Shown here in pieces: positions 66 to 37,070 of a stretch of 64,000 nt of DNA. Each line of letters opens with the position of its first letter. Position 1 is the stretch's first letter. The stretch lies in IMG/VR virus record IMGVR_UViG_3300022661_000054; one strand, 5' to 3'. A program made the translations under genes and the position numbers. The DNA comes from a virus (lineage: Duplodnaviria; Heunggongvirae; Uroviricota; Caudoviricetes). The notes beneath the pieces are model-generated. The model worked only from the letters and a program-made list of their open reading frames with translations. It had not been told where the DNA came from and made no database searches.

Positions 66-1046
66 TTATTTCTTTTTGATAAGATTGCTTATAAGCATGG
101 CTGCTTCCTGTCTGGTTAAATAACCTTTAGGATCAAATCTGTTTGCACCTTTACCTGACATGATACCAGCTTTTTTAAGATTATATACAGCAGTTTTTGC
201 CCACTTAGCAATTAAAGCGTCGTCTAGGAATTTAGCTGTTGAAGCTGTGCTTGACTTTGCATAAATATTATTTATCAAAACAGCAGCCTCTTGACGAGTA
301 ATATTAGCTGTAGGGTTAAAGTTAGAGCCATCACCATTCATTAGTTTCTTTTTCTTTAAGCTATAAACAGCGTCTTTTGCCCATGAAGCTATTTTCTTAT
401 CGTCTAAGTACTTTGCACTATCAGCCTGTGCTGTGAATTTATATTTTTTAACATTACAAACGTTGTTAACAAGCACAGCCATTTCCTGTCTGGTAATATT
501 ATTGGTTGGATTAAAAGTACCATCAGTATTGCCATTCATAATCTTAGACTCTTTAAGACTGTAAACTGCATCTTTTGCCCACGAAGCTATCTTTTTGTCG
601 TCTTTAAATAAATCTCTAATATGGTAATTATCGCTATTATATGCGCCTTTAACATTAGGAATACCTAAATAAGGTGTCGGGTCAATAGCTGTGTTATTTG
701 CATTATTAATTTGATAATGAAGATGCACACCGGTACTATTGCCTGTAGTACCCATGGTGCCTAAAACAGTAGTTCTAGATACTTTCTGTCCTTTCTTTAC
801 CTTAACACTACCTTTTACTAGATGACAAAAAATGTGTCTGTTTCCAGCTTCATCACCAACTGAGACGTACTGTCCCCAGCCACCCTCGTCAAAAGCTACG
901 TTGCGAACGGTACCATCACATGTGGCGTAAATTGTTCTATTTGAGCAGACAATATCAAGGCCTTTGTGACTATTAGCCCAATATTTTCCTTGCTGACCAA
1001 ATATTGCAGTGATTTTAAATTCACCGCTGATAGGTAAATTAGTCAT
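66..1046 (-). CDS. Endolysin: N-terminal M23 (lysostaphin-like) metallopeptidase plus three C-terminal SLH cell-wall-binding repeats
   Basis: M23 motifs HKGLDIV and HLHYQI are present. Three tandem repeats of the form DDKKIASWAKDAVY...FNPT.NITRQEAAVL resemble SLH domains, and the DNA itself is repeated at about 380-410 and 570-600. The gene sits at the end of the structural module. Confidence 0.85.
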   Translation of the reverse strand: MTNLPISGEFKITAIFGQQGKYWANSHKGLDIVCSNRTIYATCDGTVRNVAFDEGGWGQYVSVGDEAGNRHIFCHLVKGSVKVKKGQKVSRTTVLGTMGTTGNSTGVHLHYQINNANNTAIDPTPYLGIPNVKGAYNSDNYHIRDLFKDDKKIASWAKDAVYSLKESKIMNGNTDGTFNPTNNITRQEMAVLVNNVCNVKKYKFTAQADSAKYLDDKKIASWAKDAVYSLKKKKLMNGDGSNFNPTANITRQEAAVLINNIYAKSSTASTAKFLDDALIAKWAKTAVYNLKKAGIMSGKGANRFDPKGYLTRQEAAMLISNLIKKK

Positions 1047-3322: not shown

Positions 3323-4639
3323 TTAATTAAGATATTTAGAATCTAAGTACTCAAGATGCTCTTTAACAAACGTTCTTAAATAGCTTAAAGTGTTTGTGGT
3401 CACTAAAGGAATATCCGGATTGGCAATAGTATCTTTTATAGCCTCATCTTCGCCACCATAACTATTAATATATTTTTCAAACTCGTACATTATTGAACTA
3501 TAGCTTAAAACTGACTCTCTCAACTCTGCGTATCTCTCAATATAATCATTGGAATAAAAGTTGCCAATAATGCTAGGAAGTATACTATAATGGTTTAGGT
3601 AAGGATTGTTAATTGCAGGACGTCCGTCGTCGCCAAATAATGATACTCTACTTGAGTTAAGCAATTCTCCCTCCCAAGATAAGTCAAAAGTAGCGTCGAG
3701 ATCATAAGCACTTAAATACCATTTATCTAAGTCATACGTAACAAGAAGCATGTTCTTGGCTAAGCCATCTGTACCTAGAATGACGTCCTGAAGTATGTAA
3801 TAGTCTATCAGGCTCTGTTTATCAAGACTACGTGTAATAGCATCAGAAACGTTGTTAACATAACCACCATGCACATTTTCATATAAAGTCTGAAATTTAT
3901 TTTTAATATTTGTTACGTCATTACCGACTTCAACACTCCAATAAGTATCTTCACCATTCCATACAGTATTAAAGTTACATGGATTTTTTTGTACGGAACT
4001 ATTACCATTATCATTAAATTCAGCCTGAAGTACAGTATGCTTAGGATTATTTTCATTCATACCGAAAAGTTTGGCATTCTTATTAGTAACTAAGCCATAC
4101 AAACCGACATATTCATTGTTAATATAAACTTTTACAGGAAAACCATCAATAGCACCATTATTTGGGCTATTTCTAAGTTCTTCTGGCAATGAATCATAAT
4201 CATGTCTGCTGGCAACTACCTTGCTCCATAAATTAGAACATACTATGTTTCTAGCATGTAGAATATCGTTATAGTCTGCCTTAAGAGTAAAGATGTTAGA
4301 TGAACCCCAATTTCTAAAATTAATGCTTAGCGGCATTGTACGCCACTCATCACTAAACAATTTAAAAGTAAAATTCTTTTTTGGAAGCGCTAGTGTAGAG
4401 GTTCCTTGTAGTTTAATTTTTGTATAAGCTTTAAAAGTTAATGTTTTAGAGGTATATTCAAGTTCACCATTAACATAGTTCTTCGAATCCGGTATAGAAC
4501 CAGTAATAAATAGAACAGGAACGTCACTATCCTGAGATTCCGTAACAGCATTTAAAGAGTCATTTTTTTGTAATGACTCTTTAAATGCTCCTAATACAGA
4601 AGCTAAAACATCAACTGTGATTAAGTTGTTGTTTGCCAT
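3323..4639 (-). CDS. CotH-like domain protein (structural-module protein)
   Basis: The segment AKNMLLVTYDLDKWYLSAYDLDATFDLSW matches the CotH-kinase-family core (GKN..L..D....KWY.IPWD.D.tFG) as I remember it. A paralogous segment is present in the giant protein. Confidence 0.55.
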   Translation of the reverse strand: MANNNLITVDVLASVLGAFKESLQKNDSLNAVTESQDSDVPVLFITGSIPDSKNYVNGELEYTSKTLTFKAYTKIKLQGTSTLALPKKNFTFKLFSDEWRTMPLSINFRNWGSSNIFTLKADYNDILHARNIVCSNLWSKVVASRHDYDSLPEELRNSPNNGAIDGFPVKVYINNEYVGLYGLVTNKNAKLFGMNENNPKHTVLQAEFNDNGNSSVQKNPCNFNTVWNGEDTYWSVEVGNDVTNIKNKFQTLYENVHGGYVNNVSDAITRSLDKQSLIDYYILQDVILGTDGLAKNMLLVTYDLDKWYLSAYDLDATFDLSWEGELLNSSRVSLFGDDGRPAINNPYLNHYSILPSIIGNFYSNDYIERYAELRESVLSYSSIMYEFEKYINSYGGEDEAIKDTIANPDIPLVTTNTLSYLRTFVKEHLEYLDSKYLN

Positions 4640-4652
4640 AATAATTTACCCC

Positions 4653-5462
4653 TTAGTTGGCATAGAATGTAAGTGTTCTAAGTGAAGTGCCAGCCGGCTC
4701 AACTAATATTAAACGTAAATAACCGTCACTGCCAGTATATGAACCAATTACGGCATAAGTAGCAATATTCCAACCAGATTCATCACTAGAGTAGTGTATT
4801 AATATACGTTTATTAGCATTGAGGTCTGCTTGTGCGACAGCAGCTGAGCAACGTTCACCTGTAGATGCTATATACAGATTAGAATTTGTACCACTGGCGG
4901 CTGAACTACTATTATATACTACTGTGTCAGCGCTAACTTTTGACGGTTCAATTGTATTAAGAGAAGTTGTTGTAGAACTTTGATGTACAGTTATAGCCGG
5001 CGAACCACCTTCTAGACTCATTCTATCTAGCATTACTAAACTAACATATTCAGAACCAGTTGAAGCTGTATAATAAACACCTAAAAGTTCTACGACCGCG
5101 CCGTTGTTGTCATTTTTCACAAGAACTCTATTACCAGCTATAAAATCATTATAAATATTACCATAATCGGCAATCTGTGAGTGATTCTCATCAACATAAA
5201 TAGATGCAGAGCTTCCATGATACAGTACAGTGCTTCCCGCTGAGTCACCACCGCCAATTGAACCTAGATCTGGTTTATTTAAAATAAATGCTGGACTGTC
5301 TTCATTGGTTTCATTCCAGTCAGCCTGAACTTTTGAACCAGAAGTGGTTAAGTTAGATGCTGGAACTCTTACAACTTCTCCGCCTTCTTCAACAAGAATG
5401 TTAGGAGAGGACGGATTTTCGTGCATTTCTACTTCACTTAATTTTTTGTATTGGTAAGCCAT
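4653..5462 (-). CDS. Hypothetical structural protein (269 aa)
   Basis: ORF in the fibre operon with G/S/T-rich beta-type composition. Its start is coupled to the stop of the upstream GT2 gene. Confidence 0.6.
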   Translation of the reverse strand: MAYQYKKLSEVEMHENPSSPNILVEEGGEVVRVPASNLTTSGSKVQADWNETNEDSPAFILNKPDLGSIGGGDSAGSTVLYHGSSASIYVDENHSQIADYGNIYNDFIAGNRVLVKNDNNGAVVELLGVYYTASTGSEYVSLVMLDRMSLEGGSPAITVHQSSTTTSLNTIEPSKVSADTVVYNSSSAASGTNSNLYIASTGERCSAAVAQADLNANKRILIHYSSDESGWNIATYAVIGSYTGSDGYLRLILVEPAGTSLRTLTFYAN

Positions 5463-6259
5463 TATGACTTCCTCCTTGTATAATTTATTATTTTATTTAA
5501 TAAGGCTAAATCTTTACCTTTTAAATTTTTATATTTGTTTTGCATTTCTTCTACAGTTTTTTTAATATATGTCATGTCACCATTATTCTCAGCAATAAAT
5601 TTTGCAGATAGGTACATAGCATTTATAAAATCAGAATCCTGCTTTTTGTCTCTTTCGCTGTCAGTTTTTCTAAGCACAGAATTTTTATTAAAAGTCCATA
5701 ACATAGTCACTACCTTGATGGTATTTATCTTCATAAATGCATTACACATTGAATTAAAATACGAATCATCAGCCCATCTGACTTCAGGAGAATTTCTGAT
5801 ATTATATTTCTTTAGTGATGAAACATTATATAATTTTCCATGACACGCAGTATAATTATCAGTCCGTAAACTTAGAACATTATCTCCATGTAAAGTGTAT
5901 TGCTCATAAAAATGCGTGTGAAGAAATTCTATATCAGGATAAGCTTTGATAACTTCATTAAAAGTTTCGACTGCGTAAGGCATAAACATATCATCTGAAT
6001 CTAAGAATGTTATAAAATTCTGTTCAGTATTATCTATGCCTACCTGTCTAGTCATACCGCATCCGATATTTGTTTCATTACGAATATATCTTATATTTAA
6101 TTTAGCATTGTAATCATCTACTATTGATTTAATATCTTCAGTAGAGCAGTCATCTACGACTGTAACAGTAAAATCCTGATCTGTTTGAGCTACTAGTGAA
6201 CTAAGTGTTCTGCCTAGTGTGCTAGCACAGTTGTAAGCAGGAATAATAACATCTATCAT
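5462..6259 (-). CDS. Family 2 glycosyltransferase (GT-A fold)
   Basis: The N-terminus reads MIDVIIPAYNCASTLGRTLSSLVAQTDQDFTVTVVDDCSTED. The DxD-like triplets DSD and DDS lie downstream. This is typical of GT2. Confidence 0.85.
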   Translation of the reverse strand: MIDVIIPAYNCASTLGRTLSSLVAQTDQDFTVTVVDDCSTEDIKSIVDDYNAKLNIRYIRNETNIGCGMTRQVGIDNTEQNFITFLDSDDMFMPYAVETFNEVIKAYPDIEFLHTHFYEQYTLHGDNVLSLRTDNYTACHGKLYNVSSLKKYNIRNSPEVRWADDSYFNSMCNAFMKINTIKVVTMLWTFNKNSVLRKTDSERDKKQDSDFINAMYLSAKFIAENNGDMTYIKKTVEEMQNKYKNLKGKDLALLNKIINYTRRKS

Positions 6260-6286: not shown

Positions 6287-7984
6287 TTAAATTGTATAAA
6301 CAGCACCACTATTATCAGTTAGAATAGCACCGTTTGATGTTGTTACGGGCTCAAGACTACACACAGTTGATAAAATTTCCATTACATCTTCATCAGTAGC
6401 TATATTAATATTTATATTACCTATTTTTATATTTTTAGGCTTAGAATTAAGGAAACAAGGATCTTTTACTTCTTCACCACTTTCATTCCACCAGTCAATC
6501 ATAATAAATTGACCTAGTGCTGCTTGGGGTAATATTACTTTTAGTGTAATAGATGAATCAGTTGATTCAACGCGCTCTTCCGTATAGTCAAAACTAAGGG
6601 TGCTACCGTCTTCGCCATATAAACCACAACCAAAATCATCCACACCAACGTCAAACCTTCTCCAGTATAAGCCATTGTCAATATGTTCTTGTGTAATTTC
6701 TTGTATAGTGCTAATAGAAGTTTCTTCAAATTCATACTCACAGGATACAAGGTTATTAATAGTGTCTCCAACAACTTTAGCGTCCGCTGCAAGACCATCG
6801 TGAGTTAAAGACTTATCTGTATCTATGCGCAATCTTTTCTTATCAGCATATGCATAGATGTAACCTTCACCAGACTCTCCTGCGTCAGAAGTAATCGTTA
6901 TTGTATACGGAGCAGAGGTTTCTGATAAAATGCTGCTAGCACTAAATGAGTTAATAAAATCTCTTAATGTAAAAGTTGCAGGATTGTTCTTATTAGCTGG
7001 GAAGTAGATTAAATCATAAAGGCCTGAAACATAGCCAAAGTCTATATTATTTACTCGAAAACAATAAGCCCATGCACCGTCTATACTTGGATCTGCATAT
7101 GTATAAATAGGTGTGTCAATACTATCAACAGTAATTTTTATACCATCTGAACTATCTGAATAGTCTGTATTACCATCAATCCATTTTGAAAAAATAACTG
7201 GCTCTAATATATCTGGCGGCAGACCAATATTTTCTCTTGCCTGAGCTTTTTGTTCTTCTGTCAACTTTTGAGAGTCAAAGGATACATATTGGTCTTCAAT
7301 ACGTACTTCTTTGTAGATCTCTAAATAAGGTTTTGCCCAATCTGCAATCCAAGTAATCTCTATAGAAGTAATACCGAGCGTTTCTGGAGGGTCCATGTAA
7401 CCAAACGCATTAGAAGAATCTTCTTTTAACAATTGCTGCCAAGAACTGTAAAAGTCCATTCCAGAGACATCCACGGCACCATTGATTCCGGGAAATGTTT
7501 GATAAATTCTTTGTCCCATATCGTCATAGTACCAAATACTAAAGGTTCCTTCATATCCAGTATTATCTACGCATTTAAAGATATCAAGACCTTCGGCAAT
7601 TGGAAGATTTTCTATTTCCGGAATAGATGCTGCGCCAAGCCATCTAATACCATAAGTTGTTGTATCTCCAACTTCCATTGGAGCATACCTTTCCTCGGAC
7701 TTTTGTTCAATACCAAAAAAAGGTAGCTTATTTACTGGAGTTCTACCGTCACCAATCTTCATACGTTCATAGGTATATGGCTCAGTTCTGCTGTATGTGC
7801 CATCTTTATTCTTCGGTAATTTTGGATTACCTTCAGCATCAACTAGGACGTTTCCATTTTCGTCTACTTCGGTATCATAAACGACGATCTCACCTGCAAG
7901 AGGTTTAAAATTAGTAGCGTTAAGCCAATTTACTTCTAAGTCATGCTTATTTTGAATTCGCGTTGTAATCTTTTTTGCAGACAT
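6287..7984 (-). CDS. Tail fibre protein carrying the shared N-terminal anchor motif
   Basis: The N-terminus ...HDLEVNWLNATNFKPLAGEIVVYD...YERMKIGDGRTPVNKLPF matches the motif that recurs on six other proteins in this window. Confidence 0.75.
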   Translation of the reverse strand: MSAKKITTRIQNKHDLEVNWLNATNFKPLAGEIVVYDTEVDENGNVLVDAEGNPKLPKNKDGTYSRTEPYTYERMKIGDGRTPVNKLPFFGIEQKSEERYAPMEVGDTTTYGIRWLGAASIPEIENLPIAEGLDIFKCVDNTGYEGTFSIWYYDDMGQRIYQTFPGINGAVDVSGMDFYSSWQQLLKEDSSNAFGYMDPPETLGITSIEITWIADWAKPYLEIYKEVRIEDQYVSFDSQKLTEEQKAQARENIGLPPDILEPVIFSKWIDGNTDYSDSSDGIKITVDSIDTPIYTYADPSIDGAWAYCFRVNNIDFGYVSGLYDLIYFPANKNNPATFTLRDFINSFSASSILSETSAPYTITITSDAGESGEGYIYAYADKKRLRIDTDKSLTHDGLAADAKVVGDTINNLVSCEYEFEETSISTIQEITQEHIDNGLYWRRFDVGVDDFGCGLYGEDGSTLSFDYTEERVESTDSSITLKVILPQAALGQFIMIDWWNESGEEVKDPCFLNSKPKNIKIGNININIATDEDVMEILSTVCSLEPVTTSNGAILTDNSGAVYTI

Positions 7985-8286: not shown

Positions 8287-8544
8287 TTAGTCAGGTAAAC
8301 CGGTTATTCGCCCACCGTCAACCTCTTCATCGTAACGATGTTCATATAAAACATCTTCCGTTGTAGATTTTATAAAAAAATCTAATTCTTGTAAAGTTCT
8401 AGCGCCATCACCGACTTTAATACGAGAATACTTGATTTTGTCGTCAGGATCATATATAATTAATTCCCCTGCTTCTGGTTTAAAAGAAGATAACTTTAGC
8501 CATTCTGCCTCGGTCTTATGTAGATTACTTATTCTAGCTTTCAT
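8287..8544 (-). CDS. Anchor-only mini-protein (85 aa): the shared fibre N-terminal motif with no fibre shaft
   Basis: Sequence is MKARISNLHKTEAEWLKLSSFKPEAGELIIYDPDD..IKVGDGARTLQELDFF. A TAATG overlap couples it to the upstream gene. Confidence 0.6.
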   Translation of the reverse strand: MKARISNLHKTEAEWLKLSSFKPEAGELIIYDPDDKIKYSRIKVGDGARTLQELDFFIKSTTEDVLYEHRYDEEVDGGRITGLPD

Positions 8545-9236
8545 TAATTAAAGTTACCTCCATTTTTAAGAATTTGTTTAATTACCATATTGTCTACCGA
8601 TTCAGATATATCTGTACCATAAGAAAACATATTTACTTTTTCCATGTCTGATAGAGATTTTATATACTGTTTAGCGGCATTAAAATATGTTGTATGGTAA
8701 AGAACGTGTGCCCTGAAAGTTTTTACAATCTTAAGCATGTCTTCACGTAAAAATATTTTACACGGTTTATCAGTAGCGTGATATATAAAGGTTTCTTCTC
8801 CCGCAACTAACTGACCTTCAATTACCATTAAGTTAATTTGATCTTCTGTAGTTAATTTAAAACTACACAATTCGCCATCAGATAAAGTAACAGAAAAACC
8901 GGCAGTAATTTTATTTTTACACGTATTAGAAAGACGTTTTATAACTTCACGCTTGGCCTTGGCAAGGGCTGATTCATTAGCGCTAGGCTCCTGACCAGAG
9001 TTTAATAGACTCTGTAGTCTATTAAACTCTTCAGAAGAAATTTCTTCAATAGTAACTATATCTGACTTTCTCTGCGCCAGAGGAGCAAATGCATATAAAG
9101 TTGTATTATCAGAACCGACTATTCCATGAGCGGAAGACTTATCCGTAAGATTTACTTGACCTGTAGACATCAGTCTAAAGAAGCGAGGTATCTTTACTAC
9201 ATCAATAACCTTATTATTAAGTATAATTTTATACAT
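8544..9236 (-). CDS. Hypothetical protein (230 aa), possibly a fibre assembly or adapter protein
   Basis: Its start overlaps the stop of the giant gene through a TAATG junction. No motif recognised. Confidence 0.65.
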   Translation of the reverse strand: MYKIILNNKVIDVVKIPRFFRLMSTGQVNLTDKSSAHGIVGSDNTTLYAFAPLAQRKSDIVTIEEISSEEFNRLQSLLNSGQEPSANESALAKAKREVIKRLSNTCKNKITAGFSVTLSDGELCSFKLTTEDQINLMVIEGQLVAGEETFIYHATDKPCKIFLREDMLKIVKTFRAHVLYHTTYFNAAKQYIKSLSDMEKVNMFSYGTDISESVDNMVIKQILKNGGNFN

Positions 9237-12200
9237 TATGCTTCCTCCTCATACTCAAAATTAAGAATACAATTACTTGCACCAAATGTTGGGTCTTTTT
9301 CTCTGCCTTGATCGTCTACTCCAGAATAGTAATTGTAATGTTGCTCTTCTGTCCATGGGAAATTAAATATAACAGGGTTATCCTGGCTACCAGAATTTAT
9401 GAAGGCTCCTGGATGAATATAGAAAGGCTGCTTGTCACCACTTTCAGTATTTTTAAAAGTTACACTCTTCAAAGTTGACATATATCCAAAAGCTCTCTCC
9501 ATGATGTTGGTTACAGTAGATGGGATTATAACACTTTCTAATATACATTGATTAAATACATAAGTTCTTATGTCAGTTAAGCCTTCTGGTAAGACTACTT
9601 CAGATAGCTTATAACACCAAGAAAAGCAAATATCACGTAATTCTTTTAGTGTACTTGGCAACACAACATTTTGTAGTTGCTCACAATGACTAAATGCATT
9701 GTCAGCAATAGAACTTACACCATTAGGTATTTCAATAGCTGTAATTGGCATTTTAGCAAAGCAATATCTACCAAGACTGACTACAGAACCATCTTGTGGA
9801 ATCTCGTTAGTTAGACCTTGAAGTAACTTTTTACTTTGTTTATCAATTAAACAATTTTGTTTAACTACAAATTTAGTATTGCCTTCTGCAACATTAATTT
9901 TCGTTAGCTTCAAGCATTCTGCAAAAGCGCCGTCATTAATAGTAGAAACATTAACTGGAATAGTTATTTCTTTTATTGTATCACAGCCTTGGAAAGCCCT
10001 TGAATCAATTGTTTCTAGAGAATCAGGTAAATTAATCAACTCCAATTCATCATGATCGTTAAAACCACCTAATCGTATTACAGTATAAGGCATGCCAGCG
10101 ACCTCAATATTTTTTGGTACAGTAACAGCAGCATTTTGATAGTTATTATATTTAATAATAGCCATTGTACCATCTGGATTGAGCGTATGCCCGACTTGTA
10201 GCTTTTCATTATAATCATAATATTCACCAATATCATAAATGTCTACTACATGCCAGGAGCTTTCTGATACCTTAAATTGTGCATAGCAAGTCATCGGACC
10301 AACAATTTTTTCTGGTGCTGGATGCCAACCAGTAAACTCATATATATCAGAAGATGGTACAACCGGAGTGGGATAGCCAGCGCCAAAGTAGTCTGCATCT
10401 TCACCATAAGGAACATAAATTTCAGCTAATAATTGGTTTCCCTCTGGGGCAGTTTGGTTTATAAATGTTATAAGATAACTACGCCTAATTGCCTCAAAAG
10501 CAGGATAAAGTATTCGATTACCAGCAACTCCAAGTAAAGCATCCGCATGAACACCCTCACCTAATTTTCTAGTCCAACCAATCCACTCGTAATTAAACTC
10601 TTCAGTAGAATCTTTAGTAGGCTTAGCAATCATACCTTCAGGCACTTGGCCATCGTCACCTAAATAGACCGGATCTTCACAATCAACTATCTCAGAATTA
10701 TATGATATAATGGTTTCACGATGTAGTACTGTTTCACCATCAGCACCCATAAATATAACATCTGAAGTCATTTCACCATATATAATATCAAGATAAGGAT
10801 AATGAGCTTTAATTTCTGTATACTCCTCACCTGTGAGCTTTGTAATATAGCAAGTACCAACTAAATAAGCGTCATCTAAAGGATTGTTTTTTTCGTCAAT
10901 ACCTCTTATACCACTAACAAGATTACCTGCTTCATCAAATACTGGAAACAAAGATGTGATAAAACTAGCATCAGCTAAAGGCATTTCTGCCGTGCCCCAC
11001 TCGATACCGGTAAGACGGACACGCTCAACAGTGTACTTGCCAGTATTATCGCAGCAATTTGCAAGTATTTCATTTGTATTCAAATTAGGACAGTTTTCTA
11101 TACACAAAGTTCTTATGTTTTGGTAACCCTCTACATAAAATCCGTCTATGAAGTCATCAGAACCGTTCTCTCCACGCTGTGGATACAAATAATGTTGATT
11201 TTTAATAACTAGCGTATTAATCGATGCAGGAAGATGAAGCGTCTTAATATAGCCACTAGTAGGCAGGTCTACTGAGGTAAGGTTAGTACCTTCAGTGTAA
11301 ATATGCTCAATATTAGGACATCCAGATAGCTCCAAAGTCTTTTGCGGATTTTCACCCGCAATACCAAGGCCTGAGCAGTTTCTTAAATCAATATAGCGCA
11401 ACAACCTATTAGAGCCTACTGAAATTTCACGGAAGTTATCATTATAATATGCAGAGTCTGGATTACCAACAGTTAGCTCTGTTAATTTTGCAGCATTACT
11501 TAGGTTAATAACACCACAATATAAACCAGACAAATCACCAAGAGAAGAGATTTCGCTGGCACCATAGATAGCGGTCTCAGTGTCACCGAATGTTTCATTC
11601 TCATTTAGCGGTTTAAATGTGTAAGATTCACCTGCTTTTAACCTTTGTTGCTGAAGTGTACCAGACTTATAACGAACGCCAGCATACATATCTGAGAAGG
11701 GTGTTATAGTAATATTAGGATTAGCAGGTACAACAGCCAAAGAAGCGTTGATACGATCAATTTCTTCCTGTGTAGCATCGTCAGCAGCCTTAGGAGTATA
11801 AATTCGTAAGAAAATATCATCACTCGGGTAGTTTCCTGCATACCACTTGCTATCACAGTAATTTATACGGTTATCAATAAAGTATCTTAAATGGTGCTCA
11901 CCAGGGCCACGAACTTGATAAAGGTTAGAAGCATCTATACCAGTTACTTCATTACCGTCTTCATCCTTATGAGCAACATGCTCTCTTGCCATAGAAACGT
12001 ATTTATAATCTGCGTCAGCGTTATAGATGGCAGCACTCCATTTATCAGAACCATTAGTAACGAATTGTTCTATAATTTTATTATAGGTTAGCTTTCCACT
12101 ACTTCTTAGTTCAGAATAAGTATCCTCGATCTCTTTTGGAAAACAGAGTCTGAAGTTGTTCCAAAGTACGCTATTCTGACCATTAAATACATTAGAAGAA

Positions 12201-15200
12201 CCGAGTTGATCAGTATCTTCGTGAAAATAGTCAAAAACTAGAGCACCTTCATTGTTGATACCAAAAATTGTGTCGTTATCATAGAAGTATGGATACCATC
12301 TAAAAACACCATCGTCCTCTTTCCAACGAGTAAGGAATAGGTTCTTAGCCCTCTGGTCAGTCATTAGCGCAAAGAACGTGAATACATAATACATGCTACT
12401 ATAATGCATGTTGAAGTAATTTTTAAATTCGTACTTAAACTTAGCTAATCTATACTCTTCATTGTCCTCAGTATAAGTTGTTTCACCATAAACTATAGGT
12501 TCAGTCAATGGTGCAGGGGTAATTGCTACTTTTTTACCATCTATAAGAGAATATGTAGCTGTACTGAGTACCCAATCATGCATTTCTTTAAAGTTAGCAA
12601 TGCAGTTAGACATTAAAGTAGCGAGCTCATTTCTTTGCGCGGATGTCATTGTACCTTTTCCGCTTGCTGCGAGCTCTTCAACTTCTTTTAGTTCTTCAAT
12701 ACGCTCAAAGTTAGCAGATTCTGGTACATATCTCGGTTCAAAGTCTTCTAGCCAATCAGCTGTGATCTCACCGGCGAAGTTTACTGTGTCAGAAGTGTTA
12801 TTACAGAATTCCCAACATTCTACGCCGTAGTCTTTATACTCTTCAGTAAATCCAAAAGCATTTTCAGCATCTTTATCATAGTTAAAGTTACCCTTAGATG
12901 AAAACACTGGTTCAGAGTCTTCAGTCTCTTTTTCAAAGATAATAATTGGGAAACCTTGAATCGTTGTACGTACTCTAGTATCATCTTTCTGCGGCGGGAG
13001 AATTACTTCTTCTCTATCATAAAAAGTTTCAACGTAATTAGCAACTCCTGTATTGTGGGTACCAGTAGCTTCTGCGTAATCTACTTTAACACAAAATACT
13101 TTTGCTGGAATGGCCCCAGGCATATGAGCCCTTGCTTCAGGAAGCTTTACTTTCCAGTTTTTACGAATATAGAACTGTGAAGAAGTACCTTGTACGTCAA
13201 TCTGGTCCAAAAGTACGTCAAAATTCATTTCTGGGTGCGTTGGGTCCTCAAACTTCATACGTGTAGTCTTCTTCTTTTTATCACCTTTATACGTAGGCAT
13301 TGGGCCTGTAAAAGTAATAATAGGAATCTGCCCGAGAGCTTTTACTCTATCATATGAAACCTTACCGTTTTCGTCTAATATATCATTATCCGTCATAAGC
13401 TGTAGTCTTGTAGTAGGCACAGTCTGGTCTGCAATATAGTTATTTAAAGCGGCAGATGTTGAAAGTGCTTTATTATAAATACGAATATTATAAATATCAA
13501 GTCCACATAAATTTGAACCCAGTTTAATAGTTAATGGGTTATTCTGCTGAAAGCTATCAGTGTCTGCATATCTTTGTACTCCAGAAAGAATACCGTCAAG
13601 ATATATAGAAACAAAACGAGAAGTCGTATCTGAATGTTCTACTGCTATAGCGACTCTAACACGCTCCTCATCTTTATATCTGCAAGAAACCTCTGTACCA
13701 GAGCTCTTTAAGAAAGCAGTATCTGGGGTTGCTCTGAAACCTTTAGAACCATCGAAACAATCGATTACAACAGCATCGCGGTCATTAACATCACGAACAA
13801 CAAACTCAAATTCAATGGTTTTACCATTAGCCTTAAAGTCTTCAGCAAAAGGTTTAAAGTTAATAATTGCTTTAGCATCACCATTTAGTCTTAAGCAGGT
13901 ATCACCGGCATTATCAGTAATCCAACCGTTAGATGTCCAGTTAAAACCCTCAAAAGAAGTAGTAACCGTGTTATATGTTTTGTCACCATCAGGTGCTTGA
14001 GTATATTCCCAAATGGCTGGATTTTGCTCATTATTTGAGCGACCTTGTGCAGACAGGTAGAGCTGCATACTGTCCTCTTCAGGTGATACATCTACCTCAA
14101 GCTCTGCCACCCTCACAGTATGTGATTTAGTAATAGTCGTTTGTACACCATACAAATTATAAGTATAACTAATTTCAAATACTGCAATACCATTTGGATA
14201 TTTTCTCGTATTCCAGAATTGCTGGCTACGGTCTACAGTAATAGATGTTCTGTCTATTTCAATTAATTCGCCAGCTACCTGAGAGTACACAATAAGTTCG
14301 ATATCACTATTAATTTTAGCAGGGTCATAAACCATGTAAGGAATTGATACAAGGTCACCCTGAGTAGCTTCCTCAAAGTCATACACAGATGTGATAATAG
14401 CAGTATTGTTATCATTCTCAATACAAATAATCTCATACTCAAGAATATTAGAAGTAACAGTATTGTCGCCAACAACTGCGGATACATGAGCAGTAATTTT
14501 ATGGCATCCATGAGCTTGCTTCGGAATTAGCAAGGTTATTTCATTACCACTAACACTTGCGCCAAGTTTTTTAATAGAAACCTCTGCGCCATCTACTAAG
14601 ATATAGGCAGTCTTTTCTATCTGCCCAAATACTTTATATCTGAATGTAATAGCATCATTAAAAATTTGTGTACTATTAAAAGCAGATTCAAGACGGAGTT
14701 CAATCTGTGAAATGGTATATACTAAAGTTCTCAAAGAACCATACTGGTCAGTACAAGTTACCTTAACAGTATTTGAACCATTTTTTAAATGATCTGCAAC
14801 ATTCAAAGACTTAGCTATTCCATGTTGAATACTACCAGATAGAGTCTCAATTTTTTTATCATTTATAACAACAGAATAAACACCATCACCAGTAGGTACT
14901 TCATTTTCGAATGATGTATAAGTGAAATTAATCAATGCTTCATTACCCTTTGAAATAGTAAATGAAGTAGAAGGAAGATTATTTATTACTCTAACCGTGG
15001 AGATGCTTCCACCACCACCTGTGCCTCCAGTAATAGTTACTGGGTCACCAACCGGTATATCTTTAGAAGTTAACCATAGCTGATTGTCTTCGTAGAGCAA
15101 ACCATCAACAGCGTTAGAAGGAATATAGCTAGGTAGACTTGCTTTAAGAGCGTCGAGGTCATCACCAATAGCTCTAACTGCATCACCAGCAGAAGCGTGA

Positions 15201-16990: not shown

Positions 16991-17054
16991 AAGCTTAACT
17001 CCAATCTACTTGTTTTATTGTTCGTATAATTTAGCAAATAGATTAAAAAAAATT

Positions 17055-17082
17055 AAGCAGGTGACCTTAAGGTCACCTGCTT
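17055..17082 (-). terminator. Intrinsic terminator after gene 17107..19398
   Basis: Perfect 28-nt palindrome aagcaggtgacc-ttaa-ggtcacctgctt followed by TTTTTTTT on the minus strand. Confidence 0.75.
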
Positions 17083-17106
17083 AAAACATATATTAGTATC
17101 TAATTA

Positions 17107-29737: not shown

Positions 29738-30598
29738 TTACAGATATAGCTTATACTTATTTTGATTTTTAGCTGCGATGACGGTATTCTGCATAAGCAT
29801 TGCAATTGTCATAGGTCCGACACCACCAGGTACCGGAGTAATCCATGATGTTTTGCGTGAAACATTTTCAAAATCGACATCACCACAGAGCTTGCCGTCT
29901 ACACGGTTAATTCCGACATCAATAACGACAGCGCCGTCTTTAACCATATCTGCTGTAATAAACCCAGGACTGCCGACGGCAACCACAAGAATGTCAGCCC
30001 GACGACAAACTTCTGTCAAGTCATTAGTTTTAGAATGCGCTGTTGTGACAGTGCCGTCTTTGTGAAGCAATAGCATGCTCATTGGCTTTCCGACAATATT
30101 AGATCTACCTACAACAACACACTCTTTGCCAGCTACTTCAATATTATAGTAGTCAAGCATTTCCATAACACCTGCGGGGGTACAAGGAAGAAAATCATAT
30201 TCGCCGATCATAATTTTACCAACATTTTTTGGGTGAAAGGCATCTACATCTTTGTATGGACTAACTGCGTTCAAAACAGCTTTCTCGTCATAACCAGGTG
30301 GGAGGGGGAGCTGCACAAGAATACCATCAATTGCTTCGTCAATGTTTAAGTCGTAGATAAGTCTAATAAGCTTTTCCTGGCCAATATCCGCAGGTAAATT
30401 AAACTGTCTTGAAATAATACCCGTCTCCTCACAAGCCTTTTGCTTATTTCTTACATATACCTGCGAAGCTTGGTCTTCACCAACTAAGATAACAGCCAAA
30501 CAAGGATAAACTCTTTTTTCTTTTAGTTGTTTAACTTCTTCGGCTACACGCTCCTTAACCGCTTTTGATACAACCTTACCATCAATAATATTACTCAT
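29738..30598 (-). CDS. folD: Bifunctional 5,10-methylene-tetrahydrofolate dehydrogenase / methenyl-THF cyclohydrolase
   Basis: Full-length FolD (286 aa). Sequence reads NIIDGK...LAVILVGEDQASQVYVRNK...VVVGRSNIVGKPM. The YxxxK-type substrate motif and the GRSxIVGxP NAD(P)-binding motif are both present. Confidence 0.9.
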   Translation of the reverse strand: MSNIIDGKVVSKAVKERVAEEVKQLKEKRVYPCLAVILVGEDQASQVYVRNKQKACEETGIISRQFNLPADIGQEKLIRLIYDLNIDEAIDGILVQLPLPPGYDEKAVLNAVSPYKDVDAFHPKNVGKIMIGEYDFLPCTPAGVMEMLDYYNIEVAGKECVVVGRSNIVGKPMSMLLLHKDGTVTTAHSKTNDLTEVCRRADILVVAVGSPGFITADMVKDGAVVIDVGINRVDGKLCGDVDFENVSRKTSWITPVPGGVGPMTIAMLMQNTVIAAKNQNKYKLYL

Positions 30599-31552: not shown

Positions 31553-32443
31553 TTATTCTTCAATCTCGTCTCTAATATCTAGGATAGCTGAACCTTCACC
31601 CATAACCTGAGGAAGCTTGCCATCCCACTTTTCGTAAAATTTAGATTCAAGTACTTGGTCAGTCAGAGATTGAGTAAGAAGCTTATTAGCAGCTGCTTCT
31701 GCTTCAGCAGCAATTTTAAGAGCTTTTGCATCTGCCTCTGCCTTTGCAATCTTTGTCTCATTATCATAATCAGCCTTAAGCTTTGCCTGTTCGGCTACCA
31801 TCTTGTCCTCTACTGCTTTTTCAAAAGAATCAGAAAAATCGATATTAGTAAGCACTACAGCTTCTACACTGATAAAGTAGCCCTCGTCAACAGCTGCTTT
31901 GACTGCTGCTTCTACCTCAGGCGAGATAGCAGCTCTATTTGCAATAATATTCATAGCTTTATGTGAGGAAAGTACAGCCTTAGTTTTTTCAATAACAATA
32001 GACTGAATACGTCCCTGTAGTACCTCAAGAGTACCATACTGAGTAGCAATATCAGTTACCTTATCAGGAACGACTCGGTACTGAAGTGTCATGGCTACAT
32101 CCATAGTTTGTGCATCACTAGAATAAGCAGCAGTAATAATTTCTACATTCTGCACCTTAGTATCATACTTTGAATAAGAAGTGGTCATCCAAAGGTCAAA
32201 ATTCGTGCCTGCGTCTCTAGTACCTGTAATCTTACCTAAAGTTTTAACTACAGCGATCTCGCCAGAATTCACAGTACGAAACGAGAACGGTACCGCAATA
32301 AAGCTAATACAGAAGATAACAGTTAAAATAATACAAATTACCTTACCAGCCGCAATGTCATTCTCTGAGCAGTAATAAACACCAATGCCGCAGCCAATAG
32401 CCAAGACCGCTAACAAAATACCTACAAAAAATCCAATTGCCAT
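31553..32443 (-). CDS. SPFH / band-7 (stomatin-prohibitin-like) membrane protein
   Basis: N-terminal TM helices are followed by NSGEIAVVKTLGKITG...QNVEIITAAYSSDAQTMDVAMTLQYRV, which is typical of the SPFH core. The C-terminus has an Ala/Glu/Lys coiled coil. Confidence 0.8.
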   Translation of the reverse strand: MAIGFFVGILLAVLAIGCGIGVYYCSENDIAAGKVICIILTVIFCISFIAVPFSFRTVNSGEIAVVKTLGKITGTRDAGTNFDLWMTTSYSKYDTKVQNVEIITAAYSSDAQTMDVAMTLQYRVVPDKVTDIATQYGTLEVLQGRIQSIVIEKTKAVLSSHKAMNIIANRAAISPEVEAAVKAAVDEGYFISVEAVVLTNIDFSDSFEKAVEDKMVAEQAKLKADYDNETKIAKAEADAKALKIAAEAEAAANKLLTQSLTDQVLESKFYEKWDGKLPQVMGEGSAILDIRDEIEE

Positions 32444-32506: not shown

Positions 32507-33037
32507 TTAATTTAACAAAAAAGTATCAGTAAACCAGATTAATCTATCTCTAAAAGTATCTAAAGTTGAATCATTATGAATAATCGCATCAAAATTATAA
32601 TTATCCATAGAAGTTTCAGAAACGTGCTGTTTCTGCTTTTCTGTTAAACCGCTTTCAAAATTAGGACGTTCAACTCTAAGAAGCTTAGTAGGAAAATTCT
32701 TTTCAACCTGGGTAAATTCAATCGGATAACGACAATCAGGAATCAAAACATAATCCCACTCATTCTCAAAAAACTTAAGGATATCAACAATAAAATCTAC
32801 CCAATAAGATGGCTGTTGTGAAGAAATCACATCTGTTCCTACATATTGAAGAAGCGTTCGACCTTTCTCATCTTTTTGGCCATCCCAGTTAAAGAAGTTT
32901 GTACATACAAACTTTACAAGATCAGCATAATGAGTAATCAGCACTCTATTACCTTTAGCTTCTAAGTAATCTTTAATAATACTAGCGGCAGTATCTTTAC
33001 CATGTTGTGCTTTTGCACTAATACAACAAACTTTCAT
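32507..33037 (-). CDS. P-loop nucleotide kinase, dNMP-kinase-like (T4 gp1-like)
   Basis: The Walker A-like stretch ISAKAQHGKDT sits at the extreme N-terminus, as in phage deoxynucleoside-monophosphate kinases. Size is 176 aa. Confidence 0.6.
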   Translation of the reverse strand: MKVCCISAKAQHGKDTAASIIKDYLEAKGNRVLITHYADLVKFVCTNFFNWDGQKDEKGRTLLQYVGTDVISSQQPSYWVDFIVDILKFFENEWDYVLIPDCRYPIEFTQVEKNFPTKLLRVERPNFESGLTEKQKQHVSETSMDNYNFDAIIHNDSTLDTFRDRLIWFTDTFLLN

Positions 33038-36437: not shown

Positions 36438-37070
36438 TTACTTAAAATCTTCCCACTTAATCTTAACAATGACACGCTTGCCACAACGGTCTCGCATTTC
36501 TACCTTAGGTCTACCTACAAGACCTTCCATCTTAGCAGTTCCCATAGTAGAGTCAGGATGACCTTTTACAAAGTCTACACCTTCCTGAATAGTACCTTCA
36601 AAAATGATAGGAACAACATCAATTCCAAAAGACCTTGCGATATCTTCTACAGAGTCTCTGGACTGGTAATTACCACAAATAAGCACATCAAAAAGAATAA
36701 AGCTTACATCACTTCTATAGGCTCCGCCTTTCTGGATCTTAGGACCATAGCCTTCACCAAAAAGAATTACAGGAGTCTCACCAAACTTCTCCTCAAAAAT
36801 CTGCTCAGCTTCATTAGTCTTAAAAGTAGCTAAAAGATAATCAAGAAGAAAAACAGGAATCTGTGCTTTATCAGTTCTACCACCAAAAGAAATGGTATGA
36901 CCATCCCAGTACACACGAATATTGGTTCCGTCTACCTTTTCAGTAAACTGCCAAATATTATCCTTAAGAAACTCTACTGTCGGATTTCTAAACTCACCTT
37001 CAAGCAGCTTCTTAGTCCCGTCCATGTCTCTTTTCCAAAGAGTTTCAATCTTATTATATTCTACCATCAT
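36438..37070 (-). CDS. Small ATP-dependent polynucleotide ligase-like nucleotidyltransferase (KxDG motif I)
   Basis: FTEKVDGTNIRVYWDG is ligase motif I (KxDGxN). Size is 210 aa. Confidence 0.55.
   Translation of the reverse strand: MMVEYNKIETLWKRDMDGTKKLLEGEFRNPTVEFLKDNIWQFTEKVDGTNIRVYWDGHTISFGGRTDKAQIPVFLLDYLLATFKTNEAEQIFEEKFGETPVILFGEGYGPKIQKGGAYRSDVSFILFDVLICGNYQSRDSVEDIARSFGIDVVPIIFEGTIQEGVDFVKGHPDSTMGTAKMEGLVGRPKVEMRDRCGKRVIVKIKWEDFK

What the first reader, a model, noticed from the sequence alone, without database searches (positions are those of the whole stretch)
5462..6259. GT2 glycosyltransferase embedded between fibre genes
A clear family-2 glycosyltransferase is translationally coupled between the 565-aa anchor-bearing fibre gene and downstream fibre-like genes. 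It could glycosylate the fibre or virion proteins, or act as a host-surface-modifying moron for superinfection exclusion.
Basis: partly seen in the sequence, partly recalled or inferred. Interest (0 to 1): 0.55.

Follow-up and report, generated by a model that had tools for sequence, protein, structure and literature searches.

The report
Phage glycosyltransferase paired with fibre genes
A real, catalytically intact family-2 glycosyltransferase sits inside the tail-fibre operon of an uncultured ~220-kb phage, belongs to a subfamily found here only on phage contigs, and almost always lies next to one small modular fibre protein (in close relatives also a CotH kinase-like protein), so it most likely sugar-coats fibre proteins, though this is unproven.

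Summary
Window 5462-6259 (minus strand) encodes a 265-aa soluble GT-A/GT2 enzyme: Pfam PF00535 E=2e-25, invariant DSDD motif and TarS-aligned Asp165, and a model that matches TarS, TarP and SpsA.

It lies in a long late operon of fibre and receptor-binding genes that ends in the endolysin. Its stop overlaps the next start (TAATG). Upstream there is a 27-nt spacer with an RBS, so coupling is plausible only on the downstream side.

- **Subfamily.** The 265-aa subfamily was found only on phage contigs. The best hit in 185,579 cellular genomes is 35% identical over the N-terminal 202 residues.
- **Pairing.** In 10 of 13 lineages (GT identity 40-100%) the GT gene touches a gene for a small protein ("X"). 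X has a conserved ~45-aa N-terminal module and a variable C-terminus. X usually follows a protein ending in a conserved 37-aa C-terminal tail.
- **Cassette.** In the six closest lineages the order is [C-tail fibre]-GT-X-CotH. The CotH protein keeps its kinase catalytic residues.

No target was shown. Best guess (0.45): late cytoplasmic O-glycosylation of fibre proteins. Main rival (0.30): modification of host wall polymers. It is not a classical moron and not a GtrB. This is a new variant of a known kind, of moderate interest.

The parts
5462..6259 (-). 265-aa soluble GT-A / family-2 glycosyltransferase. Key residues are D36-D37, the DxD motif D87-S-D89-D90, H140 and the catalytic-base candidate D165. 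A C-terminal three-helix region spans aa 201-263.
   Evidence: Pfam PF00535 at 90.1 bits. PDB sequence hits to K4CP, TarS, GalT1, TarP and SpsA. Invariant residues in alignment A1. AF2 model plus Foldseek. No TM segment: maximum Kyte-Doolittle 19-mer score 0.9.
6287..7984 (-). 565-aa fibre-like protein directly upstream. It has an N-terminal 'KIGDG.T..LPF' anchor-type motif, and its last 37 aa (nt 6290-6400) form the conserved C-terminal tail 'ATDEDVMEIL...PVTTSNGAILTDNSGAVYTI'.
   Evidence: No Pfam or PHROG hit. N-terminal motif shared with the giant fibre. The C-tail motif occurs once in the 64-kb window and once per related locus, always at the C-terminus of the protein preceding the GT or X genes.
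4653..5462 (-). 269-aa protein 'X'. It has a conserved N-terminal module (aa 1-70, nt 5253-5462: MAYxYKKLSEV...NILVEEGGE...QADWNET..PAFILNKPDL), then a Gly/Ser linker and a variable C-terminal domain. Its start overlaps the GT stop (TAATG).
   Evidence: Alignments A3 and A7. N70 is 39-77% identical and the rest about 27-35% (noise level). An HMM of the module hits a gene adjacent to the GT in 10 of 13 lineages. No Pfam, PHROG, NCBIfam or INPHARED match.
3323..4639 (-). 438-aa CotH-family (atypical kinase fold) protein, the third conserved gene of the cassette in close relatives.
   Evidence: Pfam PF08757 at 78.9 bits. AF2 model with pLDDT 75 matches B. cereus CotH kinase 5jda (E=6e-13, TMt 0.69). 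D291-x3-K295-N296, D313-x-D315 and K88 are invariant across divergent phage CotH domains. Found downstream of GT-X in window/L001, L005, L173, L007, L009 and L012.
9236..16990 (-). 2584-aa giant fibre that heads the operon. It has an N-terminal anchor motif, a coiled coil, an internal CotH-like domain (aa ~1220-1720, nt ~11831-13333) and a C-terminal BspA-type LRR.
   Evidence: Pfam LRR_5 at 2e-39. phrog_14959 at 4e-124. BLASTP against the 438-aa CotH at 3e-5, with the D..KN and YDxD motifs aligned.
8544..9236 (-). 230-aa tail-fibre protein family member.
   Evidence: phrog_1348 'tail fiber protein' at 3.6e-12.
17053..17084 (-). Strong intrinsic-terminator-like hairpin (14 bp stem plus a T run) just upstream of the giant fibre gene. 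It marks the likely start of the transcription unit that contains the GT.
   Evidence: No comparable minus-strand terminator lies between 16990 and 1046.
66..1046 (-). Endolysin (Peptidase_M23 plus 3 SLH repeats) at the end of the same gene string. It implies a host whose wall polymers bind SLH domains.
   Evidence: Pfam SLH at 1e-38 and Peptidase_M23 at 3e-21.

Best explanation
The gene encodes a soluble, metal-dependent, inverting-type GT-A glycosyltransferase made late in infection together with the tail-fibre proteins of a ~220-kb uncultured phage.

Most likely it transfers a sugar from a host nucleotide-sugar onto one or more fibre proteins in the cytoplasm before virion assembly. The prime candidate acceptor is the small modular protein X, or its partner that carries the conserved C-terminal tail. 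The result would be glycan-decorated fibres.

In the closest relatives the adjacent CotH-type kinase-like protein belongs to the same conserved block and may add a second modification or be a fibre component itself.

Shown here: enzyme family, intact catalytic motifs, operon position, restriction to phage contigs, and conserved adjacency to the X module. Inferred: the acceptor, the donor sugar and the biological benefit.
For: 1. The enzyme looks real and intact.
2. It has no signal peptide or TM segment, so it acts in the cytoplasm.
3. It is embedded in the fibre operon. Its stop overlaps the start of X, it has no promoter or terminator of its own, and its GC3 equals that of its neighbours.
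4. The 265-aa subfamily was found only on phage contigs. The best cellular hit among 185,579 species genomes is 35% identical over aa 1-202. More than 120 clusters of close relatives lie on contigs up to 259 kb.
5. An X-module gene is immediately adjacent to the GT in 10 of 13 lineages. It is downstream in window, L005, L173, L007, L009 and L012, and upstream in L171, L174, L259 and L013. In L013 the pair sits in a head module between the minor head protein and the major capsid protein. No X module was found in about 240 loci with generic GT2s.
6. The GT is the best-conserved element of the block (61-77%), while the bodies of the neighbouring fibres are unrelated. This fits a partner that is a conserved module rather than a variable receptor.
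7. Several X proteins carry Ser/Thr/Gly-rich linkers right after the conserved module, for example L173 'GGTTSDGGTTDNTPSTGSTSSTK'.
8. There is precedent: mycobacteriophages glycosylate capsid and tail-tube C-termini with their own glycosyltransferases (Freeman et al. 2023, as cited in PMC12363180 and PMC12619734).
9. Some relatives carry a second GT2 in the same fibre region, which fits stepwise glycan building (L005, L171).
Against: - No glycan or acceptor was observed, and adjacency is not proof of a substrate relationship.
- The nearest solved structures (TarS, TarP, RmlT) glycosylate wall teichoic acid, not proteins.
- The C-tail and X-module pair exists without any GT in another phage (L266), so X does not need the GT.
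- Ser/Thr-rich linkers are not universal in X, and the 'TTS' of the C-tail is lost in L173.
- Three of 13 lineages show other contexts: holin plus integrase (L176), a TagD-like cytidylyltransferase (L261), and small flanking proteins without the X module in a mixed gene region (L262). L175 lies in a tail-assembly region but its upstream flank is missing.
- The next-closest phage GT2 clade (~320 aa, 43-48% identity) lies between RNase H and DNA ligase.
- There is no detectable homology to the proven mycobacteriophage virion glycosyltransferases.
Confidence: 0.45

Rival explanations
1. The GT modifies a host cell-envelope glycopolymer (wall teichoic acid, secondary cell-wall polymer or S-layer glycan) at the cytoplasmic face of the membrane, as TarS, TarP and RmlT do. 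This would change the phage receptor. The infected cell or its debris would then no longer adsorb phage, giving superinfection exclusion or protection of progeny from dead-end adsorption. Linkage to the receptor-binding genes would keep receptor and receptor-modifier together.
For: - The top structural and sequence matches are the WTA glycosyltransferases TarS, TarP and RmlT.
- The host has SLH-binding wall polymers, judging from the endolysin SLH domains.
- PHROG gives weak 'GtrB-like O-antigen conversion' hits over the N-terminal half.
- One relative (L176, 40% identity) lies between a holin and an integrase, a typical lysogenic-conversion position.
- Another relative (L261, 44%) overlaps a 133-aa TagD-like cytidylyltransferase gene.
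- Phage-encoded TarP is an established precedent (PDB 6h1j family; its biology is from my own knowledge).
Against: - The gene sits in a late structural operon of a ~220-kb phage, and no integrase was found among the window ORFs scanned with Pfam or PHROGs. Modifying nascent wall polymer late in a lytic cycle would have little time to act.
- The GT is highly conserved while the putative receptor-binding domains next to it are unrelated between phages. That is not expected if GT specificity tracks the receptor.
- It lacks the C-terminal oligomerisation domains of TarS and TarP, and the TM helices and GtrA/GtrC partners of GtrB.
- No member of the 265-aa subfamily turned up in the scan of 185,579 species genomes, whether chromosomal or prophage (best hit 35% identity).
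Confidence: 0.3
2. The GT glycosylates phage DNA (hydroxymethyl-pyrimidines) or a small molecule or nucleoside, and its position among fibre genes is incidental.
For: - The window encodes FolD and a dNMP kinase, enzymes often associated with modified-nucleotide pathways.
- The next-closest phage GT2 clade (L014-type) lies between RNase H and DNA ligase near NrdD.
- The nucleoside glycosyltransferase AvpGT is among the top structural hits.
- Virus GTs that hypermodify DNA are known (Pyle et al. 2024, cited in PMC12619734).
Against: - No hydroxymethylase-like or thymidylate-synthase-like protein was seen among the window ORFs scanned.
- The 265-aa subfamily is consistently placed in structural modules next to X-module genes, not in replication modules.
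- The L014 clade differs in length and in its C-terminal region.
Confidence: 0.08
3. The GT is a passenger with no functional tie to the fibres. The conserved C-tail and X-N junction would be a recombination-permissive seam in the fibre array where accessory genes accumulate, and the GT hitch-hikes with the conserved linker sequences.
For: - The conserved block is bounded by the conserved C-tail and the conserved X N-terminus, a typical mosaic-module boundary.
- In L173, nrdD and nrdG have been inserted in the same region.
- The C-tail and X-N pair exists without the GT in L266.
Against: - The GT changes side relative to X (upstream or downstream) and even moves with X into a head module (L013), yet stays adjacent.
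- Strong purifying selection on catalytic residues shows that it is used.
- Hitch-hiking explains the location, not the function.
Confidence: 0.1

Closest known systems
S. aureus wall-teichoic-acid glycosyltransferases TarS and prophage-encoded TarP (GT2, GT-A; PDB 5tzi/5tze, 6h1j)
   Same: - Best structural and near-best sequence matches.
- The same DSDD metal and nucleotide-sugar motif, and an aligned acidic pair (TarS 'ED', here D164-D165).
- Soluble cytoplasmic enzymes.
- TarP is phage-borne.
   Different: - Only 17-23% identical.
- This protein stops at 265 aa with three helices and lacks the C-terminal oligomerisation domains.
- It lies in a late fibre operon of a ~220-kb phage rather than a prophage moron locus.
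- Its acceptor is unknown.
Mycobacteriophage virion glycosylation enzymes (Che8 gp108-110, Corndog gp38; Freeman et al. 2023, cited in PMC12363180)
   Same: - Phage-encoded glycosyltransferases that decorate virion structural proteins. This is the mechanism proposed here.
- Glycans are attached near protein termini.
   Different: - No significant sequence relationship: hhalign gives E=0.012 for gp109 and 0.15 for gp110.
- The Che8 genes sit at the genome's right end, not between fibre genes.
- The targets there are capsid and tail-tube proteins of Actinobacteria phages.
GtrB-type bactoprenol glucosyltransferases of O-antigen-converting phages (PHROG 22739 / 841)
   Same: The N-terminal nucleotide-binding half of the GT2 domain matches weakly (6.7e-8, aa 2-100).
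   Different: - No C-terminal TM helices.
- No GtrA or GtrC neighbours.
- Not in a lysogeny module.
Bacillus spore-coat maturation enzymes CotH (kinase, PDB 5jda) and SpsA (GT2, PDB 1qg8)
   Same: - The cassette pairs a CotH-fold protein that keeps its catalytic D-x4-N and DxD residues with an SpsA-like minimal GT-A enzyme.
- Both systems build an extracellular proteinaceous structure inside a cytoplasm where ATP and NDP-sugars are available.
   Different: - Similarity is at fold level only (about 15% identity).
- No evidence that the phage CotH phosphorylates anything.
- In cultured phages the CotH domain sits at the C-terminus of tail-fibre or RBP proteins and is unstudied.
Protein-directed GT2 enzymes of Firmicutes (S. 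parasanguinis GalT1 of Fap1 glycosylation, PDB 5hea; glycocin S/O-glycosyltransferases such as SunS of prophage SPbeta)
   Same: - GalT1 is the third-best PDB family by sequence (1.5e-12).
- These are GT-A enzymes that modify proteins or peptides in the cytoplasm, and for glycocins recognition is through a conserved peptide segment (my own knowledge).
   Different: - Low identity, confined to the N-terminal half.
- No TPR or peptide-binding domain of the SunS type.
- No experimental link.

Membership tests
Glycosyltransferase family 2 (Pfam PF00535, GT-A fold, inverting) | Profile match above the curated threshold | tested here: met
   90.1 bits against a cut-off of 23.3, E=2e-25, aa 4-117.
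Glycosyltransferase family 2 (Pfam PF00535, GT-A fold, inverting) | GT-A Rossmann-like fold | tested here: met
   AF2 model with pLDDT 79.5 and pTM 0.74. Foldseek PDB hits to TarS at 7e-9, and to TarP, SpsA and K4CP, all with probability 1.00.
Glycosyltransferase family 2 (Pfam PF00535, GT-A fold, inverting) | DxD metal and nucleotide-sugar motif plus the upstream Asp of the 'DD' nucleotide-binding motif | tested here: met
   D87-S-D89-D90 and D37 are invariant in 21 sequences of 32-77% identity. The motif is identical to the 'DSDD' of TarS and K4CP in the HMMER alignments.
Glycosyltransferase family 2 (Pfam PF00535, GT-A fold, inverting) | Catalytic base Asp/Glu in the C-terminal half | tested here: met
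   D165 is invariant and D164 is at least 90% conserved. They align with 'ED' in TarS 'SAEDQLF'. That this TarS Asp is the catalytic base comes from my own recollection of the TarS literature.
Glycosyltransferase family 2 (Pfam PF00535, GT-A fold, inverting) | Glycosyl transfer activity, donor and acceptor | not testable with these tools
   No NCBIfam equivalog model is reached. The best is TuaG at 64 bits against a cut-off of 400, over the N-terminal half only.
TarS/TarP-type WTA glycosyltransferases | C-terminal oligomerisation (trimerisation or tandem beta-sandwich) domain after the catalytic domain | tested here: not met
   The protein ends at residue 265. After the GT-A core there are only three helices, 201-263. 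TarS is 572 aa and the TarP chains are ~313-318 residues.
TarS/TarP-type WTA glycosyltransferases | Activity on poly-ribitol-phosphate, with basic acceptor-groove residues | not tested
   No residue-level structural superposition was available.
GtrB-like bactoprenol glucosyltransferase (O-antigen conversion) | C-terminal transmembrane helices and GtrA/GtrC partner genes | tested here: not met
   The maximum Kyte-Doolittle 19-mer score is 0.9, so there is no TM segment. The neighbours are fibre and CotH genes.
Mycobacteriophage virion glycosyltransferases (Che8 gp109/gp110 type) | Sequence homology to the proven enzymes | tested here: not met
   hhalign of family profile A1 against gp109 gives E=0.012 (probability 3.6%), and against gp110 gives E=0.15.
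Mycobacteriophage virion glycosylation (functional class) | Glycans present on virion proteins | not testable with these tools
   Needs mass spectrometry or glycostaining of virions or co-expressed proteins.
Phage moron / lysogenic-conversion gene | Own promoter and terminator, atypical composition, location at the lysogeny or lysis boundary | tested here: not met
   There is no minus-strand promoter-like or terminator-like site flanking the gene. Its GC3 of 0.222 matches its neighbours at 0.22-0.25. It lies inside the fibre operon. One distant relative (L176) does sit beside a holin and an integrase.
CotH kinase family (neighbour gene 3323-4639) | Pfam PF08757 match, CotH fold, and the catalytic D-x4-N and metal-binding DxD motifs | tested here: met
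   78.9 bits against a cut-off of 23.8. Foldseek match to 5jda at E=6e-13 and TMt 0.69. D291, K295, N296, D313 and D315 are invariant across five phage CotH domains of 23-55% identity. Mapping these residues onto the B. subtilis catalytic residues is from memory. Kinase activity was not tested.

The most novel reading that the evidence does not exclude
The GT, the X-module protein and the CotH-type kinase would form a phage-specific 'fibre maturation' cassette. Tail-fibre tip proteins would be recognised through a conserved ~45-aa N-terminal tag, then glycosylated and phosphorylated (possibly phosphoglycosylated) in the cytoplasm before assembly. This would be a virion counterpart of Bacillus spore-coat maturation by CotH and SpsA. 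It would also make virion glycosylation a widespread trait of large uncultured phages of SLH-wall hosts, rather than a mycobacteriophage curiosity.
Probability: 0.12. Interest if true: 0.8.

Novelty: new variant of a known kind. Interest (0 to 1): 0.42.

Why it matters
Phage-encoded GT2 enzymes are well known for serotype conversion, teichoic-acid decoration and DNA modification. Glycosylation of the virion itself has so far been shown mainly for mycobacteriophages.

This subfamily is abundant in metagenomes, was found only on phage contigs, and is tied through many rearrangements to one modular fibre-protein family. In close relatives it is also tied to a catalytically intact CotH domain, a domain described in the literature as 'currently unstudied' in phages (PMC8008677).

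If the enzyme decorates fibres, that would affect host range, phage stability and immune recognition in gut-type ecosystems. It would also give a defined three-protein system (GT, X, CotH) that can be reconstituted in E. coli without culturing the phage.

If instead it modifies host wall polymers, it would be a TarP-like receptor editor used by lytic jumbo phages.

Tried and rejected
- **DNA search of INPHARED** with the 4.5-kb region gave no match. tblastn of the GT found only three weak partial hits. X and the 565-aa protein gave none.
It returned no close relative, so it could not be used to count cassettes.
- **Genome scan.** It found only generic GT2s at 35% identity or less, so there was no prophage and no host assignment.
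- **IMG/VR.** It held only two close relatives, L011 and L012. The reverse scan with the X module found those two plus one GT-less locus.
- **PDB sequence and profile searches** for the CotH protein found nothing. Fold search was needed.
- **Other libraries.** NCBIfam gave no model above its cut-off and PADLOC gave nothing. BFVD gave only generic viral GT2s at 20% identity or less. AFDB50 was not available.
- **Literature.**
  - The Freeman et al. 2023 full text is not held.
  - Searches for CotH plus phage tail, and for GT plus tail fibre, found no description of this cassette.
  - The Kayvirus preprint concerns host TarS/TarM, not a phage GT.
- **C-tail as glycosylation site.** I considered the conserved C-terminal tail 'PVTTSDG' as the site. 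Confidence is low because L173 has 'PLVQGN' there. From memory its pattern resembles a foldon-like trimerisation or docking element, but this was not tested.
- **GtrB assignment** rejected: no TM helices and no GtrA/GtrC partners.
- **Recent horizontal insertion** rejected: GC3 is identical to the neighbours.
Full report

The minus strand carries an ATG-started ORF at exactly 5462..6259, 265 aa.
- It scores 90.1 bits on Pfam Glycos_transf_2 against a cut-off of 23.3 (E=2e-25), with weaker hits to two other GT2-like models.
- By sequence it matches solved GT2 enzymes: chondroitin polymerase K4CP (9e-22), TarS (8e-15), GalT1 (1.5e-12), TarP and SpsA.
It fails. In an alignment of 21 family members (32-77% identity), D37, D87, D89, D90, H140 and D165 are invariant.
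- The 'LDSDD' motif is identical to that of TarS and K4CP. D164-D165 aligns with 'ED' in TarS 'SAEDQLF'.
- An AlphaFold2 model (pLDDT 79.5) shows a GT-A core followed by three C-terminal helices. Its best PDB matches are TarS, AvpGT, TarP, WrtF, K4CP, SpsA and RmlT.
- The protein has no hydrophobic segment (maximum Kyte-Doolittle 19-mer score 0.9). It is therefore a soluble cytoplasmic enzyme, not a GtrB-type membrane protein.

**2. Surroundings in the window**

All genes run on the minus strand. A strong terminator-like hairpin at 17084-17053 precedes a string of genes with no comparable terminator until the endolysin. In order, the string is:
- a 2584-aa giant fibre (BspA-type LRR, coiled coil, internal CotH-like domain);
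- a 230-aa phrog_1348 tail-fibre protein and an 85-aa ORF;
- the 565-aa protein;
- the GT;
- a 269-aa protein ("X");
- a 438-aa CotH-domain protein (Pfam 6.5e-22);
- 531-aa and 215-aa proteins;
- an M23 plus SLH endolysin.

Gene junctions were read from the sequence. The GT stop overlaps the X start (TAATG), with AGGAGG inside the GT 3' end. Upstream there is a 27-nt spacer containing GAAAGG. 'Translationally coupled' therefore holds only downstream.

The GT's GC3 (0.222) equals that of its neighbours (0.22-0.25). No minus-strand promoter-like site flanks it.

No sugar-nucleotide synthesis gene was found among the window ORFs scanned. These covered nearly all ORFs of at least 150 aa that do not lie inside a larger ORF.

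The window is part of a ~220-kb metagenomic contig. It has no DNA similarity to deposited phages.

**3. The family**
- The 5.8-billion-protein search returned 1,936 hits. The top 120 clusters are all 262-267 aa, at least 59% identical, and lie on contigs up to 259 kb.
- The exhaustive 50%-representative search shows about 20 further full-length clusters of 260-281 aa at 33-52% identity, before generic GT2s take over.
- In one genome per 185,579 bacterial and archaeal species, the best hit is 35% identical and covers only residues 1-202.
- Within the limits of those collections, the 265-aa subfamily is therefore found only on phage contigs and was not seen as a prophage.
- NCBIfam offers no equivalog: only the N-terminal half matches, far below the cut-offs. 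PADLOC gives nothing.

**4. Conserved neighbours: the main new result**

Contexts were fetched for members of decreasing identity. They were scanned with HMMs built here.

(a) The close-relative cassette.
- In window/L001, L005, L173, L007, L009 and L012 (61-100% GT identity) the order is GT, X, CotH. The flanks differ.
- In five of these six, the protein upstream of the GT is unrelated in its body (132-565 aa) but ends in the same 36-37-aa tail, 'ATDEDVxxxL.......PVTTSDGxILTxxxGxIYxL*'. In the sixth (L012), whose upstream gene is cut by the contig end, the tail HMM also hits the C-terminus.
- The regular-expression search found this tail exactly once in the 64-kb window and once in each of those five loci.
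- Segment identities to the window are 61-77% for the GT, 55-75% for CotH, 39-77% for the first 70 aa of X, and 38-65% for the tail. The fibre bodies and the rest of X are at noise level.

(b) More distant members.
- In L171 (47%), L174 (52%) and L259 (46%) there is no CotH. One to three small proteins with the X N-terminal module lie directly upstream of the GT and are themselves preceded by proteins ending in the tail motif.
- A fibre with the 'DWN.ND...YIKNRPF' motif follows the GT.

(c) A head-module case.
- In L013 (40%) the X-like gene and the GT sit together inside a head module. They lie between a minor head protein and the major capsid protein of a smaller phage.

(d) Exceptions.
- L176 (40%) lies beside a holin and an integrase.
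- L261 (44%) overlaps a 133-aa TagD-like cytidylyltransferase gene.
- L262 (44%) is flanked by small proteins with a different N-terminal motif.
- L175 (43%) lies before tail-assembly genes, but its upstream flank is missing.

Taken together, the GT touches an X-module gene in 10 of 13 lineages, across changes of side, partners and module. No X module occurs in about 240 loci with generic GT2s. Conversely, one phage (L266) has the tail-motif protein followed by an X-module protein without any GT. The GT is therefore an accessory to that pair, not a requirement.

**5. The CotH partner**
- The 438-aa protein's model (pLDDT 75) matches B. cereus CotH kinase 5jda (E=6e-13, TMt 0.69).
- Five phage CotH domains of 23-55% identity were compared: this protein, L007, the internal domain of the giant fibre, Klebsiella phage ST437-OXA245phi4.1 gp13 and a Lacticaseibacillus phage R3.3 protein. 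Across them K88, D291, K295, N296, D313 and D315 are invariant.
- From my recollection of the CotH literature these correspond to the ATP-binding Lys, the catalytic D-x4-N and the metal-binding DxD.
- In the P2-like Klebsiella phage the CotH protein occupies the tail-fibre slot between baseplate and tail-collar-fibre genes. In the Lacticaseibacillus phage the domain forms the C-terminus of a 1051-aa protein, the last of three large ORFs that follow another large ORF cut by the locus edge; all are annotated as hypothetical, so reading this as the tail-tip region is my inference from gene order.
- The literature notes CotH domains in phages only in passing, as 'currently unstudied' (PMC8008677).

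**6. How it most likely works**

Shown: a catalytically intact, soluble GT-A enzyme, co-transcribed with fibre genes, found only on phage contigs, and persistently adjacent to one modular fibre-protein family.

Inferred: it uses a host nucleotide-sugar and a divalent metal. It glycosylates X, its tail-motif partner, or both, in the cytoplasm before assembly. Possible sites are the Ser/Thr/Gly-rich linkers seen after the X module in several lineages. Recognition may go through the conserved module.

Precedent is mycobacteriophage virion glycosylation. Those enzymes are not homologous to this one and sit elsewhere in their genome. I put this explanation at 0.45.

**7. Rivals**
- (i) Host wall-polymer glycosylation in the manner of TarS and TarP, 0.30.
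  - For: the structural neighbours, the SLH-type host wall, and the contexts of L176 and L261.
  - Against: late expression in a large phage with no integrase among the scanned window ORFs; GT conservation despite unrelated receptor-binding domains; missing TarS/TarP C-terminal domains; and absence of the subfamily from the cellular-genome scan.
- (ii) DNA or small-molecule glycosylation, 0.08.
  - For: FolD and dNMP kinase in the window, and the replication-module context of the neighbouring ~320-aa GT2 clade.
  - Against: this subfamily sits in structural modules instead.
- (iii) Pure hitch-hiking at a recombination seam, 0.10. This would explain the position but not the function.

**8. Comparison and novelty**

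The protein is a bona fide GT2 member: all testable defining features were met. It is not a GtrB, not a TarS/TarP orthologue (the domain architecture test fails) and not related to the Che8-type enzymes.

The kind of thing (a phage GT2) is known. Three points are new:
- the subfamily was found only on phage contigs;
- it is conserved next to the tail-motif and X-module fibre pair;
- in the window's clade there is a GT, X and CotH cassette whose CotH keeps its catalytic residues.

I rate it a new variant of a known kind with interest 0.42. It is solid and testable in heterologous expression, but the function is unproven and the phage and host are uncultured.

**9. Limits**
- Lineage counts rest on 13 contexts, some on short contigs.
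- The metagenome scan failed to add more.
- Both AF2 models are of moderate confidence.
- No complex prediction could be run.
- The mapping of catalytic residues onto TarS and CotH relies partly on memory.

Noticed in passing
window 51899-52345 (-): A phage-encoded homologue of bacterial ribosomal protein L9, with both domains (L9_N 4.5e-21, L9_C 4.5e-26).
   Followed up: no
window 29738-30598 (-), 32507-33037 (-): FolD (methylene-THF dehydrogenase/cyclohydrolase; 3.6e-73) and a dNMP kinase. This could hint at a modified-nucleotide pathway. No hydroxymethylase was seen among the ORFs scanned.
   Followed up: partly
window 36438-37070 (-), 47685-48833 (-), 37806-38831 (-): Two RNA ligases (RNA_ligase and T4 Rnl1-like) plus an RlaP-type nucleotidyltransferase. 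This looks like an RNA-repair set, possibly a counter to anticodon nucleases.
   Followed up: no
window 9236-16990 (-), aa ~1220-1720: The 2584-aa giant fibre has an internal CotH-like domain that Pfam does not report, with the D..KN and YDxD motifs retained. CotH domains with invariant kinase residues thus appear twice in one fibre operon.
   Followed up: partly
window 6290-6400 (-) and 5253-5462 (-); L171 5883-7966; L174 971-2300; L259 6601-7998; L266 5392-6816: There is a recurrent gene grammar: a protein ending in the 37-aa 'ATDEDV...PVTTSDG.ILT...G.IY.L' tail is followed by one or more small proteins starting with 'MAY.Y.KLSEV....N.LVEE.GE'. This looks like a docking pair for modular fibre tips. 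Neither module matches Pfam or PHROGs.
   Followed up: partly
L014, L015, L020, L021 (GT at 10001-10960): A related ~320-aa phage GT2 clade (43-48% identity over aa 1-227) occurs in 73- to 132-kb phage contigs. In L014, the one locus annotated, it sits between RNase H and an ATP-dependent DNA ligase near NrdD, a replication-module context that suggests a different target such as DNA.
   Followed up: partly
L261 358-1540: In one 44%-identical relative the GT gene overlaps a 133-aa CTP_transf_like gene that resembles the TagD glycerol-3-phosphate cytidylyltransferase.
   Followed up: no
L005 4765-6367; L171 12513-13562: Relatives carry a second, longer GT2 (326 or 349 aa) in the same fibre region. 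In L005 it lies next to LRR_5 and CBM_5_12 proteins; in L171 it follows a 523-aa protein whose translation shows a BspA-like cysteine-containing repeat but has no Pfam hit.
   Followed up: no
L173 5557-8884: In the 72%-identical relative, anaerobic ribonucleotide reductase genes (nrdD, nrdG) and a formate/nitrite-transporter-like gene are inserted between the giant fibre gene and the GT cassette.
   Followed up: no
window 58664-59629 (-), 31553-32443 (-), 50732-51883 (-), 44199-44855 (-): Dam-type D12 N6-adenine methyltransferase (3e-60), an SPFH/Band-7 protein, a 383-aa protein with a class II aldolase-like domain, and a WDGH plus zinc-ribbon protein.
   Followed up: no
L009 441-7425: Several GIY-YIG/NUMOD and HNH homing-endonuclease genes are interspersed among SPbeta-like tail genes (YomW, YomU_Tube) upstream of the cassette in the 61%-identical relative.
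   Followed up: no
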